Part shown: positions 27,533 to 31,387 of the stretch, one piece after another
How positions within the stretch are numbered: the first letter of the stretch is position 1
How the letters are laid out: the number at the start of each line of letters is the position of its first letter
Source of the DNA: a virus
DNA: 64,000 nucleotides
Virus record (IMG/VR): IMGVR_UViG_3300037190_000626
Location: 1 to 64,000 of that record
Direction: 5' to 3' (one strand)
The notes under the pieces: generated by a model
What the model saw: the letters and a program-made list of their open reading frames with translations, nothing else
Told to the model about the DNA's origin: nothing
The model's database searches: none
Made by a program: the position numbers and the translations under genes

Positions 27533-27841
27533 ATGGTAGAACGATTTGGGCCTAGCGTTAGGAGAACACGACGGCCCCCTGACCCTGAGTGGTTAAAGTT
27601 TATGTCCACAGACGAGAAAGAGGCTATGCGGTTAGAGGAGTGGATGCTGACTAGTTTAGCAGACACCGGCCTATCCGTACGTGCTGTCAATTGTCTGGAA
27701 GGAAAAGGTATTTTAACCGTGAGTCAGTTATCTCAGCAAACCAATGACGATTTGTTGGGTATCGTAAACTTTGGGGTACAAACATTGGAACAATGTAAAA
27801 GACTTCTGATGAACATAGGAGTTCCCCACAGTCTAAAGTAA
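27533..27841 (+). CDS. stand-alone RNA polymerase alpha C-terminal-domain-like protein
   Basis: LSVRAVNCLEGKGILTVSQL...DDLLGIVNFGVQTL matches alphaCTD (L.VR..NCL...I..+..L...LL...N.G..SL). Confidence 0.8.
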   Translation: MVERFGPSVRRTRRPPDPEWLKFMSTDEKEAMRLEEWMLTSLADTGLSVRAVNCLEGKGILTVSQLSQQTNDDLLGIVNFGVQTLEQCKRLLMNIGVPHSLK

Positions 27842-27863
27842 GAGAAAATTTGTTTAGCAGATT

Positions 27864-27924: not shown

Positions 27925-28689
27925 ATGGCTACAGTTACGAAGACTAGCGCAAAGAAGCCTGCGGCTAACGACCCTTTCGCTAAGACGCGAATTGAGATTC
28001 CCGAAGTGAACATGGATATCTTCAAGTGTCGCCTTATTGGCGAGACCCCGTTGGTTATTCATGCGATGGGTGAAAAGAAGCGTAAGGAAATGCGCGATTT
28101 GATGGGCCCCAAGACGGCGGCCTCTAAGGTGCGACCCCCAAAGGATCAGGCGGGTGAGTACTTTGACGCAATGTATATTTTGAACAATCAGATGGACAAG
28201 GACGGTAAACGCCCTAACCCACATCACAACGATCAGGAATACAGCTACGAAGGTATCTTCGTTCCGCTGGCCTTTGAAGACGCTACTGCGGTTCATGGTG
28301 TGCGTGCTTCCGGGTTCCGGCTCGGTATGGTTCGTGCCGCTAAGAGCTGCGGTGCTGTGATGACGGACACTCGCTGTAACATGCGAGTTAGAAGTCCGTT
28401 TGGCTCGTTCGTCCCGTTGAGCTTTGAGACGGTTGTCTCCCGGGAAGACCCCGTGAAGTTGCAGGGCAACAAGACTGACCTGCGTTACCGCCCTGAGTAC
28501 ACGGGCTGGTCAGTTGACATCGAGATTGAGCACATGTCGGACATCATCGGACCAGAGCAGCTGATTCAGTTGCTGCGTATTTCTGGTCGTACGGTTGGTG
28601 TCGGCGAATGGCGTAATGAACGTGGCGGCGAGTTCGGCGCGTTCGATGTGGATCTGGACAGCGTCGAGCTGGAAAAGAAAACTCTGTAA
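27925..28689 (+). CDS. stand-alone Cas7/RAMP-fold RNA-binding protein, putative effector of the adjacent pentamer-repeat arrays (Vipr-like)
   Basis: N-terminal strand CRLIGETPLVIH, central RYRPEY.GWSVDIEIE, C-terminal Gly-rich loop SGRTVGVGEWRNERGGEFGAFDV typical of RAMPs; start at MATVTK behind AAGGA. Confidence 0.75.
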   Translation: MATVTKTSAKKPAANDPFAKTRIEIPEVNMDIFKCRLIGETPLVIHAMGEKKRKEMRDLMGPKTAASKVRPPKDQAGEYFDAMYILNNQMDKDGKRPNPHHNDQEYSYEGIFVPLAFEDATAVHGVRASGFRLGMVRAAKSCGAVMTDTRCNMRVRSPFGSFVPLSFETVVSREDPVKLQGNKTDLRYRPEYTGWSVDIEIEHMSDIIGPEQLIQLLRISGRTVGVGEWRNERGGEFGAFDVDLDSVELEKKTL

Positions 28690-28947: not shown

Positions 28948-29490
28948 ATGAGTAGTGGTTACGATGTAACTGTTGAATTTAGTGCCAAGCCGACTCGTCC
29001 TCTTAGCAATAAGGTGGCTGAAGAGGTTGGTCCTGAGATTCACGCATTGATGCAGAAGAACGAGGGGGACGAGCTTACCCCGCATGAGTACTTGGATTGG
29101 GTTAAGGCAAACCCAAACAGTAAGAGTTACAGTCAGTTTGAGTGGGAAGATACAATTGCTGCGAGAAAGTGGCGAGTTCATCAAGCTCGAAATATCATCA
29201 ATTCGATTGATATTAAGGTGATTGACGAACGCGGCGACGCGGTGAGCGTTCCTGCGTTCATTCATATTACGAGGGCAGACTCGGGTGAGGATGCTCGTCA
29301 GTTGTATACTTCTTACGAAAACGTTCTGAACGACGAGGAAAGCTCTTCACAGGTGGTAGCGAGAGCTTGCCGTGATTTCCTGTCGTGGCGTCGTCGTTAC
29401 CTGCTGCTCCGGGGTAAGCTGCCACTGGCAGACATTTACGATGCGACGGACGTTCTGGCTCAAGAGCTGGAAGCACCGGAAGAAGATTAA
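28948..29490 (+). CDS. conserved partner protein between the RAMP gene and the array
   Basis: LTP..Y...K.NP.S..Y..FEW.D..AA..WR..QAR..I.SI motif of a widespread phage hypothetical family; directly upstream of array 1. Confidence 0.7.
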   Translation: MSSGYDVTVEFSAKPTRPLSNKVAEEVGPEIHALMQKNEGDELTPHEYLDWVKANPNSKSYSQFEWEDTIAARKWRVHQARNIINSIDIKVIDERGDAVSVPAFIHITRADSGEDARQLYTSYENVLNDEESSSQVVARACRDFLSWRRRYLLLRGKLPLADIYDATDVLAQELEAPEED

Positions 29491-29568: not shown

Positions 29569-30312
29569 GGCAGTCATGGCGAGGTGTGACATGGTGAGCT
29601 GGGGCTTGTTAAGGTCTGGCGGGGTTAGGTCAGGTAAGGCAGTCTTGGCAGGGTAAGGTGTGTTAAGGCACTGCGAGGTGGGCCACGGTTAGGCGAGGAA
29701 TGGCAGTCATGGTTAGGTTTAGCGAGGCGGGGAGAGGTGCGGCAGGGTGCGGCTGGGCAGTCATGGCATGGTGCGGTCGGTACCGGCGGGGTCAGGAGGG
29801 GTAAGGCTCGGAATGGCAGTCAAGGTGAGGTTAGGCATGGTCTGGAACGTTATGCGCTGGTTTGGAGTGGTAAGGCAGTCGTGGCGGGGTGGGGCCGGTC
29901 TGGGATAGGTCCGGTTGGGTGAGGCAGTCGAGGCGGGGTCTGGTAAGTTGCGTTAAGGCGGGGAAAGGTGGGGTGGGTTACGGCAGTCAAGGCTAGGTGT
30001 GGTGTAGTGTGTCGAGGCGGCGAAAGGTCGGGCAGGGCAGTCATGGTGAGGCGGGGTGTTGCTGGGTGTGTCTGGTTCGGGGCTGGCGAGGCAGTCATGG
30101 CAGGGGGTGGTGGGTAGCGGCGGGGTCAGGAGGGGCAAGGCAGTCATGGTGAGGTGTGACACGATGAGGTGTGACATGGTTCGGCAGTCGAGGTCGGGTC
30201 TGGTTCGATCTGGCAAGCCGAGGCGTGGTGCGTTGAGGCAGGCATGGAATGGGTGGCACGGCGCGGTCAGACCACGGTGAGTAATGGCAAGGCTAGGCAG
30301 CCATGGCGCGGA
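29569..30312 (+). repeat. array 1: 13 units of GGCAGTC-NN-(GGY-NN)7-12, putative guide-RNA array
   Basis: Heads at 29569, 29638, 29702, 29756, 29815, 29874, 29923, 29982, 30036, 30090, 30139, 30183, 30237 (GGCAGGC), 30296 (GGCAGCC); unit lengths 69, 64, 54, 59, 59, 49, 59, 54, 54, 49, 44, 54, 59, all 9+5n. Confidence 0.92.
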
Positions 30313-30326
30313 TATTAACTTTACCC

Positions 30327-30698
30327 CTACTTTTCGCAGCTGCTGCAACGAGCACTCCATCTTGATCTCATCTGAGAGCGAACCGGACGTTCTTGTGCCA
30401 TAACACGTAGGGCCCGAAACGGCATAGTTGTAACTCTTACTGTGGTTCTCACAGTGGCTCTAACAAGCGTTCGAACTGGTTGTGCGTCACGGAGCCTCTT
30501 TGCGGCATTACGTAAGGGAGATCGGCAACTGCGGCCCTCTGCTGCGACGACAGGTTGCTTATCGGCTTCTTGCATACTGACAGCACTAACGTATGACACA
30601 GTTGACGCTTTGGATGCGTGATCACAATCTTGTGCGTTAACAGAGCTGAAAGAGAGAACACTTACGACAACGGCTGAAGCTAAACACTTTTTAAACAT
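30327..30698 (-). CDS. small secreted, Arg-rich protein lying between the two arrays
   Basis: Signal-peptide-like MFKKCLASAVVVSVLSFSSVNA; AGGA SD on the minus strand; PVRTLVRATVRTTVR low-complexity tail. Confidence 0.6.
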   Translation of the reverse strand: MFKKCLASAVVVSVLSFSSVNAQDCDHASKASTVSYVSAVSMQEADKQPVVAAEGRSCRSPLRNAAKRLRDAQPVRTLVRATVRTTVRVTTMPFRALRVMAQERPVRSQMRSRWSARCSSCEK

Positions 30699-30831: not shown

Positions 30832-31017
30832 GGCAGTCATGGTTAGGTGCGTACTGGTGAGGTGGGTTCAGGTCAGGCAGGGTGTGGTATGGCAGTCAAG
30901 GCGAGGTATGGTCGGGTGAGACATGGTCGGGCTGGGCGAGGCGAGGAATGGCAGTCAGGGCAAGGTCTGGTTGGGTTTGATTCGGAGGGGCGAGGAGTGG
31001 CAGTCGTGGTGCGGTTG
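30832..31017 (+). repeat. array 2: 3 full units plus a partial unit of GGCAGTC-NN-(GGY-NN)n
   Basis: Heads at 30832, 30891, 30950, 30999; lengths 59, 59, 49; same 5-nt phase as array 1. Confidence 0.9.
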
Positions 31018-31021
31018 CTAG

Positions 31022-31387
31022 ACTTAAGCTTTTGACTTAAGCTTGTGAGTCCTTACGTTAAGTAATATATAAAACAAGGAGGAGTGATGAGACCTGAGTC
31101 ATTTAGGTCAAAACCATTTATTGATTGTTCTAAGTGGGAATGTTGGAATTGCGGTGCAATTCACCATTACATACCTGCTGATTGTCAAAAATGTCGGGTG
31201 AAATTTGTCTCCCGACCTCACTGGGGTGTTCCCGAGAAAAATTCGGAGATCTCTGAAGAGAAGAAAACATCAATATCTTTTGATGAGTTAATATCTGATT
31301 TACTGAAAGGACCAGAAGAAGAGTAACTGCTTGATGCCCTGTATATATTATCTATAGGACTCACAAGCTTAAGTTAAAAGCTTAAGT
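31022..31387. repeat. 32-bp inverted repeat pair flanking a small ORF
   Basis: ACTTAAGCTTTTGACTTAAGCTTGTGAGTCCT (31022-31053) vs AGGACTCACAAGCTTAAGTTAAAAGCTTAAGT (31356-31387), 31/32 complementary. Confidence 0.85.
31084..31326 (+). CDS. small zinc-ribbon protein
   Basis: WECWNCG...DCQKC; AAGGAGG SD. Confidence 0.55.
   Translation: MMRPESFRSKPFIDCSKWECWNCGAIHHYIPADCQKCRVKFVSRPHWGVPEKNSEISEEKKTSISFDELISDLLKGPEEE

What the first reader, a model, noticed from the sequence alone, without database searches (positions are those of the whole stretch)
30036..30096. Guide unit decoding to a serine-recombinase motif (IDGVCVWRLD-R)
Seen: ATnGAnGGnGTnTGnGTnTGnCGnCTnGA reads as I-D-G-V-C/W-V-W-R-L-D; the AG of the next GGCAG head would add R. 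Established: D.hhVW+LDRL is the conserved motif of resolvase/large serine recombinases. Inference: a guide against integrative elements or prophages (inter-element conflict).
Basis: partly seen in the sequence, partly recalled or inferred. Interest (0 to 1): 0.72.

Follow-up and report, generated by a model that had tools for sequence, protein, structure and literature searches.

The report
VIPR guide unit reading a recombinase-like motif
This 54-base unit is one guide RNA gene of a phage VIPR system, a CRISPR-like DNA silencer first described in 2026, and its closest natural matches are a conserved strand of serine recombinase genes in other phages, although no perfect target was found.

Summary
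Window 30036-30089 reads GGCAGTC + AT + nine (GGY-like triplet + NN) pentamers. It is one of 18 head-marked units (16 complete) whose spacings all equal 5k+4.

The locus is a VIPR system: a Cas7/RAMP-fold gene, a conserved partner gene and GGY/NN guide arrays. VIPR is in print in three 2026 bioRxiv preprints. This scan has noted it before on other DNA (668 notes in at least 440 genomes).

I confirmed the "NN = codon positions 1-2" code on a sibling unit. Its pattern hit 120 of 120 metagenome stretches in frame on one type I R-M HsdM motif.

This unit has no perfect target in GTDB species genomes or IMG/VR. Freeing its fifth dinucleotide gave two in-frame families at 18-19 of 20 read bases:
- Gp3-like recombination directionality factors.

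Freeing five other positions gave no hit above 18/20 and no family cluster at 18/20 or better.

The next head's AG is not read. The next target codon starts TA in 119 of 120 HsdM hits and CG in 7 of 7 recombinase hits.

Verdict: a new member of a known kind. The recombinase target is plausible but not proven.

The parts
27925..28689 (+). vipr-like gene (Cas7/RAMP-fold protein, 254 aa from the ATG; the ORF opens at a TTG at 27850)
   Evidence: No Pfam or NCBIfam hit. PHROG phrog_4652, function unknown. AF2 model pLDDT 78. All top Foldseek PDB hits are Csm3/Cas7, type VII Cas7, Cmr4 or Cas7-11 (E 1e-6 to 3e-4, prob 1.0, TM 0.34-0.52). Homologues sit next to the same kind of array in 14 of 23 other loci. 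Conserved G-loop-like GVGEWRPE..G.FG.
28948..29490 (+). vap-like accessory gene (180 aa)
   Evidence: phrog_15946, function unknown. Homologues lie between vipr and the array in 11 of 23 other loci. AF2 pLDDT 86. Only weak winged-helix-like PDB matches, none at E<=0.001.
29569..30310 (+). vrRNA array 1: 14 GGCAGTC-type heads, 13 complete units
   Evidence: Grammar GGCAGTC NN (GGY NN)n. Spacings 69, 64, 54, 59, 59, 49, 59, 54, 54, 49, 44, 54, 59.
30036..30042 (+). head (GGCAGTC) of the unit in question
30043..30089 (+). guide part of the unit: first NN (AT) plus nine triplet+NN pentamers, giving 10 read dinucleotides
   Evidence: The first NN (AT) was not required in the scan, yet it is matched in 6 of 7 recombinase hits and 4 of 7 Gp3-like hits.
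30090..30096 (+). head of the next unit; its AG is not part of this guide's read-out
30832..31017 (+). vrRNA array 2: 4 heads, 3 complete units, separated from array 1 by a minus-strand ORF

Best explanation
The unit is one guide (vrRNA) gene in the array of a phage-encoded VIPR system.

Mechanism, taken from the preprints and not tested here: the array is transcribed on the + strand. The Vipr protein (27925-28689) polymerises on the RNA with one protomer per pentamer and buries each GGY. It presents the NN pairs, which base-pair with double-stranded DNA while every third target base is skipped. The bound gene is then silenced.

Shown here: the locus has the Vipr fold, the partner gene and the GGY/NN grammar. 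A sibling unit obeys the 1-nt-skip, wobble-aligned rule perfectly.

Inferred: this unit's ten dinucleotides read I-(D/E)-G-V-x-V-W-R-L-(D/E). The most likely target class is the conserved hydrophobic strand plus 'LD(R)' of the catalytic domain of a small serine recombinase (DNA invertase/resolvase type) carried by a rival phage or integrative element. Silencing it would stop that element's recombination. The exact natural target, which would need Cys or Trp at the fifth codon for a 20/20 match, is not in the collections I could scan.
For: System identity:
- Cas7-like fold.
- The vipr-vap-array module is conserved at 25-34% protein identity.
- 191 units from the other fetched viral loci and the window itself follow the same head and 5k+4 rule.
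- Units turn over between related phages.
- VIPR preprints 10.64898/2026.04.26.720920 (Results and two Methods sections read).720927 (abstract and two Results sections) and 10.64898/2026.10.15.759431 (abstract, two sections, passages).

All are in frame at Y-KDYILTMLFVK-YLSD of HsdM_N + N6_Mtase proteins, with free third positions.

This unit:
- With dinucleotide 5 freed, 29 IMG/VR stretches matched.
- Seven are PF00239 resolvase-domain genes (2 of the 7 checked by Pfam, E 5e-39 and 2e-37; PHROG names DNA invertase/integrase). They match in frame at 19/20 (4 hits), 18/20 (2) and 17/20 (1).
- One lies on a 46-kb phage contig rated 100% complete, just upstream of the terminase gene.
- Freeing positions 3, 4, 6, 7 or 8 instead gave 4, 8, 20, 17 and 15 stretches. 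None was above 18/20, and none was an in-frame conserved-family cluster at 18/20 or better, judged by eye.

Precedent: SUSP1 vrRNA4 silences a satellite's recombinase. By my own count along the sequence printed in that paper, its footprint (residues 79-84) is the strand just before the ..IDRIGR stretch, which is the same element.
Against: - No 20/20 or 9-dinucleotide-core match lies in a recombinase. GTDB species genomes gave 12 hits against about 17 expected by chance. None has AT in front. Ten have in-frame stops nearby, and the 2 open ones do not look like recombinases by eye. IMG/VR gave 1 chance hit.
- A second, unrelated family (Gp3-like, PF18897) matches equally well: 19/20 in 4 hits and 18/20 in 3.
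- A rough count says that 19/20 among about 17 independent 16-base hits is expected about 0.9 times by chance. The case therefore rests on frame, conservation and precedent, not on the score alone.
- Among 30 protein clusters of the matching recombinase subfamily, the fifth residue is L (in 23) or V (in 7), never C or W.
- The recombinase contigs at 18-19/20 have 55-61% G+C and the 17/20 one has 50%. The window has 48%.
- No other unit of this array reaches 85% on those contigs.
- Forty resolvase loci from five genome searches gave 15/22 at the canonical motif against a shuffled-guide null of 15-16.
- In 401 genomes at up to 2 mismatches there were 3 hits against 2 control hits, and none is a recombinase.
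Confidence: 0.5

Rival explanations
1. The unit is a VIPR guide, but its target is the Gp3-like recombination directionality factor of rival temperate phages (motif ..SEIEGVGVWRLESHGY..), not a recombinase.
For: Seven IMG/VR hits lie in frame, at 19/20 (4 hits) and 18/20 (3 hits). The single mismatch is GG against TG at the fifth dinucleotide. Pfam Gp3-like gives E 9e-41 and 1e-41 on the 2 proteins checked. A GGC-to-TGC change in the target would give a perfect match.
Against: All seven contigs have 68-72% G+C, against 48% for this phage, so a shared host is unlikely. No other unit hits these loci. I saw no published precedent for this target class in the passages I read.
Confidence: 0.15
2. 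The unit is a VIPR guide whose true target is some other gene, or a variant not present in the scanned collections. The 19/20 resemblance to both families is coincidental.
For: There is no perfect hit in two large collections. My rough expectation is about 0.9 chance 19/20 events in the scan. There is no co-targeting of the candidate contigs. There is a G+C mismatch. Dinucleotides 2, 9 and 10 were never freed.
Against: Both 19/20 families are in frame, with the skipped base on the wobble position, and on conserved motifs. Five control relaxations gave nothing comparable. The first dinucleotide AT, which the scan did not require, is matched in 10 of 14 family hits.
Confidence: 0.3
3. The unit is a decayed or decoy guide with no current target.
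For: It lacks a perfect match, whereas a sibling unit has more than 120. Four of its nine triplets depart from GGY (TGC, GTC, GTT, GGG).
Against: The perfectly matching HsdM unit also carries off-consensus triplets (GTT, GCG). This unit's length obeys 9+5n, and its head is intact.
Confidence: 0.05

Closest known systems
VIPR systems (Vipr + Vap + vrRNA), reference type II system of Escherichia phage SUSP1 (bioRxiv 10.64898/2026.04.26.720920 and .720927)
   Same: A lone small RAMP/Cas7-fold protein, a partner gene and phage-borne arrays of GGY/NN pentamers. Targets are read by the NN pairs with one skipped base aligned to the codon wobble position. There is no self-target.
   Different: The units here are 44-69 nt and are separated only by a 7-nt GGCAGTC head, with no roughly 30-nt tail or pseudoknot. 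The spacing of 5k+4 may correspond to the paper's 'staggered arrays with overlapping vrRNAs'. I read only the legend of fig. S18, not the figure. Protein similarity to SUSP1 Vipr was not tested. tblastn found only Gordonia, Mycobacterium and Pseudomonas phage homologues.
SUSP1 vrRNA4 against the F5 satellite excision recombinase (bioRxiv 10.64898/2026.10.15.759431)
   Same: A phage VIPR guide reads, wobble-aligned, a buried strand of a recombinase catalytic domain. By my count this is the strand just before the ..DR..R stretch. Natural matches there are imperfect (89.2% of read bases on average).
   Different: That case is shown experimentally, uses a six-unit footprint and has an identified satellite. 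Here the target element is unidentified, the best match is 95%, and a rival family matches equally well.
Class 1 CRISPR Cas7-crRNA backbones (Csm3, Cmr4, Cas7-11)
   Same: The fold of the protein, one protomer per RNA repeat, and unit lengths stepping by the protomer footprint.
   Different: The period is 5 nt with three bases buried and two read, rather than 6 nt with five read. There are no cas genes, no repeat-spacer array and no nuclease in the locus.

Membership tests
VIPR system | Vipr protein with a minimal RAMP (RRM core, G-loop, thumb) fold | tested here: met
   AF2 model. The top Foldseek PDB hits are all Cas7-family chains. The conserved GVGEWRPE..G.FG resembles the D-W-R G-loop residues named in preprint .720927. 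That last comparison is by eye.
VIPR system | Guide RNA genes built of tandem GGY/NN pentamers with hypervariable NN | tested here: met
   115 of 151 triplets start GG, NN is diverse, and units differ almost completely between related phages.
VIPR system | Adjacent accessory (vap) gene | tested here: met
   A conserved partner sits between vipr and the array in 11 of 23 other loci. Which of vap1-6 it is was not determined. Winged-helix likeness is only weak.
VIPR system | Natural targets follow the 1-nt-skip rule, with skips on wobble positions | tested here: met
   Sibling unit 29815: 120/120 in-frame hits in hsdM. This unit: 18-19/20 in frame in two families.
VIPR system | vrRNA is expressed and bound by Vipr; a conserved 3' tail or pseudoknot is present (type II) | not testable with these tools
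   No RNA run was listed. No long tail is visible between units, so this is not the type II architecture.
Serine recombinase (PF00239) as the guide's target | The guide's read bases match a resolvase-domain gene in frame at or above the preprint's 80% threshold | tested here: met
   Seven IMG/VR genes at 17-19/20. Pfam Resolvase E 5e-39 and 2e-37 on the 2 checked.
Serine recombinase (PF00239) as the guide's target | The match is unique to this family, and the target co-occurs with the phage (same host, or other guides converging on the element) | tested here: not met
   The Gp3-like family matches equally well. No other unit reaches 85% on the recombinase contigs. G+C is 55-61% against 48%.

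The most novel reading that the evidence does not exclude
This phage's VIPR array may be a mixed panel aimed at the host's restriction apparatus and at DNA-invertase or resolvase-type recombinases, rather than only at rival phages. One guide is a perfect, wobble-proof read of type I R-M hsdM across genomes of 30-65% G+C. This unit would silence Pin/Hin-type small serine recombinases. That would either lock invertase-driven switches, for example phase-variable specificity or host-range cassettes, or immobilise rival elements. The main texts of the VIPR preprints that I read do not mention restriction-modification targets.
Probability: 0.12. Interest if true: 0.6.

Novelty: new member of a known kind. 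Interest (0 to 1): 0.27.

Why it matters
The system itself is already described, and this scan has met it often, so this single unit adds little that is new.

It still has three uses:
- It shows independently, on an uncultured large phage, that reading NN as codon positions 1-2 recovers real conserved gene motifs.
- It gives a second natural example of a guide aimed at the catalytic-domain strand of a serine recombinase. That supports the idea that silencing a rival's recombinase is a recurrent VIPR tactic.
- It is a caution: a 95% match can be shared by unrelated families, so target calls at the 80% threshold need supporting context.

Tried and rejected
Work on what the array is:
- Tandem Repeats Finder found nothing, because the units are too variable.
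- Rfam gave only one sub-threshold chance hit.
- blastn of the array against the phage collection found nothing. tblastn of a neighbouring SbcC-like gene also found nothing.
- I first considered a TRAP-like or CsrA-like protein sponge, G-quadruplex DNA, Chi-site decoys and iterons or a centromere. I dropped these once the Cas7 fold, the conserved two-gene module and the HsdM result were in hand.

Work on targets:
- No self-target appeared in the 78-kb record under gap models 0-3.
- A motif-level test on 40 resolvase loci gave 15/22 at the canonical motif, no better than shuffled guides.
- Other units do not hit the HsdM, recombinase or VIPR loci at 85% or more, nor the whole recombinase contigs.
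- The own record has no PF00239 and no PF18897. The PF18897 search rang in none of the control genomes, so it says little.
- RNA evidence: no RNA holder was listed, and read laying was not used.
- The first literature search was uninformative. The second found the VIPR preprints.

Not done:
- Freeing dinucleotides 2, 9 and 10.
- Family searches of the non-family chance hits, which I judged by eye from in-frame translations.
- Assigning the VIPR type.
- Identifying the host.
- The supplementary tables of the preprints were closed. They may list recombinase or methylase targets and array types that bear on the novelty claims.

Full report
**What is in the sequence.** The stretch 30036-30096 reads GGCAGTC AT GGT-GA GGC-GG GGT-GT TGC-TG GGT-GT GTC-TG GTT-CG GGG-CT GGC-GA, followed by the next GGCAGTC. 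It is one unit of two + strand arrays, 29569-30310 and 30832-31017.
- Eighteen heads of the form GGCAGTCNNGG (two with one mismatch) lie there. The whole window holds 32 matches against 10.8 expected, and 0 of 100 shuffles reach 32.
- All 16 head-to-head spacings (44-69 nt) equal 5k+4, so each unit is a 9-nt head plus n pentamers.
- Of 151 triplets, 63 are GGT, 36 GGC, 13 GGA and 3 GGG. The dinucleotides vary freely.

**What the locus is.** Two + strand genes sit directly upstream.
- The first (27925-28689) has no Pfam or NCBIfam hit. Its AlphaFold model (pLDDT 78) finds only Cas7-family chains at the top of a Foldseek search of the PDB: Csm3, type VII Cas7, Cmr4 and Cas7-11 (E 1e-6 to 3e-4).
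- The second (28948-29490) is a well-folded protein (pLDDT 86) with only weak winged-helix-like matches.
From these loci plus the window I parsed 191 units with the same head and the same 5k+4 rule.
- In 24 loci with at least 3 units (the window included), homologues of the first gene lie beside the array in 14 of the 23 others, and homologues of the second in 11 of 23. They are on the same strand, at 25-34% identity.
- Closely related phages carry almost entirely different units.

**It is a published system.** A literature search found bioRxiv 10.64898/2026.04.26.720920. I read its Results and several Methods sections.
- It describes VIPR: a lone ancestral RAMP protein (Vipr), an accessory Vap, and vrRNAs made of alternating GGY/NN motifs.
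- The NN pairs read double-stranded DNA with one skipped base that usually falls on the codon wobble position.
- The system acts by transcriptional silencing, and natural targets are mostly on competing phages and satellites.
- The companion structural preprint .720927 (abstract and two sections read) shows one protomer per repeat, GGY buried and NN presented.
- The third preprint, 10.64898/2026.10.15.759431 (abstract, two sections and passages), shows a SUSP1 guide silencing a satellite's excision recombinase.
- This scan has met VIPR often: 668 notes in at least 440 genomes hold the search words.
- The window's locus meets every VIPR feature I could test. Its array architecture, a short GGCAGTC separator with no long tail, differs from type II. 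It may be the 'staggered' kind, of which I could read only the legend of fig. S18.

**Independent check of the code.** I scanned the metagenome collection with its pattern, which has 22 specified bases, so I expected fewer than one chance hit.
- All 120 are in frame at the same place...Y-KDYILTMLFVK-YLSD... (115 exact at the protein level). Third positions vary freely.
- Four of four proteins checked carry HsdM_N plus N6_Mtase.
- The hit loci span 30-65% G+C.
- The next codon starts TA in 119 of 120, so the AG of the following head is not read.

**This unit: exact targets.** The nine-dinucleotide core (18 specified bases) was scanned against two collections.
- It gave 12 stretches in one genome each of 185,579 species, where about 17 are expected by chance. 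None has AT in front. Ten have in-frame stops close by. The two open ones do not look like recombinases by eye.
- IMG/VR gave one hit, next to a stop codon and opposite the real ORF.
- So no perfect target exists in those collections.
- On 40 resolvase-domain loci the canonical motif (..GDVLTVWRLDRLGRS..) scored 15 of 22. Shuffled guides reach 15-16.
- In 401 genomes at up to 2 mismatches there were 3 hits against 2 for the backward control, and none is a recombinase.

**This unit: near targets.** Freeing the fifth dinucleotide (the odd TG) gave 29 IMG/VR stretches. Fifteen look like chance, and 14 fall into two in-frame families.
- *Family A* has 7 members and reads ..LRDI-(D/E)GVLVWRLD-RFGRS... 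It matches 19/20 read bases in 4 members, 18/20 in 2 and 17/20 in 1. Pfam calls it Resolvase (E 5e-39 and 2e-37 on two members) and PHROGs calls it DNA invertase/integrase. One member sits on a 46-kb phage contig rated 100% complete, just upstream of the terminase gene.
- *Family B* has 7 members and reads ..SEI-EGVGVWRLE-SHGY... It matches 19/20 in 4 members and 18/20 in 3. Pfam calls it Gp3-like recombination directionality factor (E about 1e-41).
- The first dinucleotide AT was not required in the scan, yet it is matched in 6 of 7 and 4 of 7 members.
- As controls I freed positions 7, 8, 3, 4 and 6. These gave 17, 15, 4, 8 and 20 stretches. None exceeded 18/20, and none was an in-frame conserved-family cluster at 18/20 or better, judged by eye.

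**Weighing the two families.** Both exceed the preprint's 80% threshold.
- For the recombinase: there is a published precedent. By my own count along the recombinase sequence printed in the third preprint, the SUSP1 vrRNA4 footprint (residues 79-84) is the hydrophobic strand just before ..IDRIGR. That is the element this unit reads. The G+C gap is also smaller, 50-61% against the window's 48%.
- Against the recombinase: 30 protein clusters of that subfamily have L (23) or V (7) at the fifth residue, never C or W. No other unit of the array hits these contigs.
- Against both: the score alone is weak, because about 0.9 chance events at 19/20 are expected among roughly 17 independent 16-base hits.
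- Family B contigs have 68-72% G+C, which makes a shared host unlikely.
- I therefore put the recombinase reading at about one half, Gp3-like at 0.15, an unsampled or different target at 0.3, and a decayed guide at 0.05.

**Verdict.**
The match is 95%, not perfect, and it is shared with an unrelated family.
- The system is already in print, so this is a new member of a known kind and of modest interest.

Noticed in passing
This suggests RNA-guided silencing of restriction-modification. The preprint main texts I read do not mention that target class.
   Followed up: partly
window 31022-31053 and 31356-31387: A 32-nt inverted repeat (97% complementary) flanks a 302-nt segment directly after array 2. 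The segment holds an 80-aa Cys-rich ORF (31084-31326) with no family hit. It could be a small mobile or invertible cassette.
   Followed up: partly
window 30327-30698 (minus strand): A 123-aa ORF with a signal-peptide-like start splits the two arrays. It is on the opposite strand from all its neighbours and has no Pfam or PHROG hit. No homologue was found beside the arrays of the other 23 loci.
   Followed up: no
window 27533-27841: A 102-aa protein just upstream of vipr carries an RNA polymerase alpha C-terminal domain (PF03118, E 2.7e-13). No homologue was found next to the other VIPR loci.
   Followed up: no
window 29756-29814 and 30090-30138: Two units share a stretch of about 23 nt, triplets included (GGCGG GGTCA GGAGG GGYAA GGC). 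Guides can therefore share segments by duplication.
   Followed up: no
L029:2548-2631, L087:11639-11726 and internal copies, L132 (reverse strand): In a related clade of phages, each sub-array is preceded by a conserved leader of about 40 nt (..GTAGGGCTCC..AAAAAGCCCGAGAC..). It may be a promoter or a processing element.
   Followed up: no
phage records H1-H19: Homologues of the Vipr-like protein in Gordonia, Mycobacterium and Pseudomonas phages (for example UmaThurman gene 39 and LESphi2) are annotated only as hypothetical proteins.
   Followed up: no
L302, L304, L310, L311, L313, L315, L326: Gp3-like recombination directionality factors of high-G+C phage contigs carry a conserved I/V-E-G-V-G-V-W-R-L-E strand. 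Its first two codon positions nearly coincide with those of an unrelated serine recombinase strand.
   Followed up: partly
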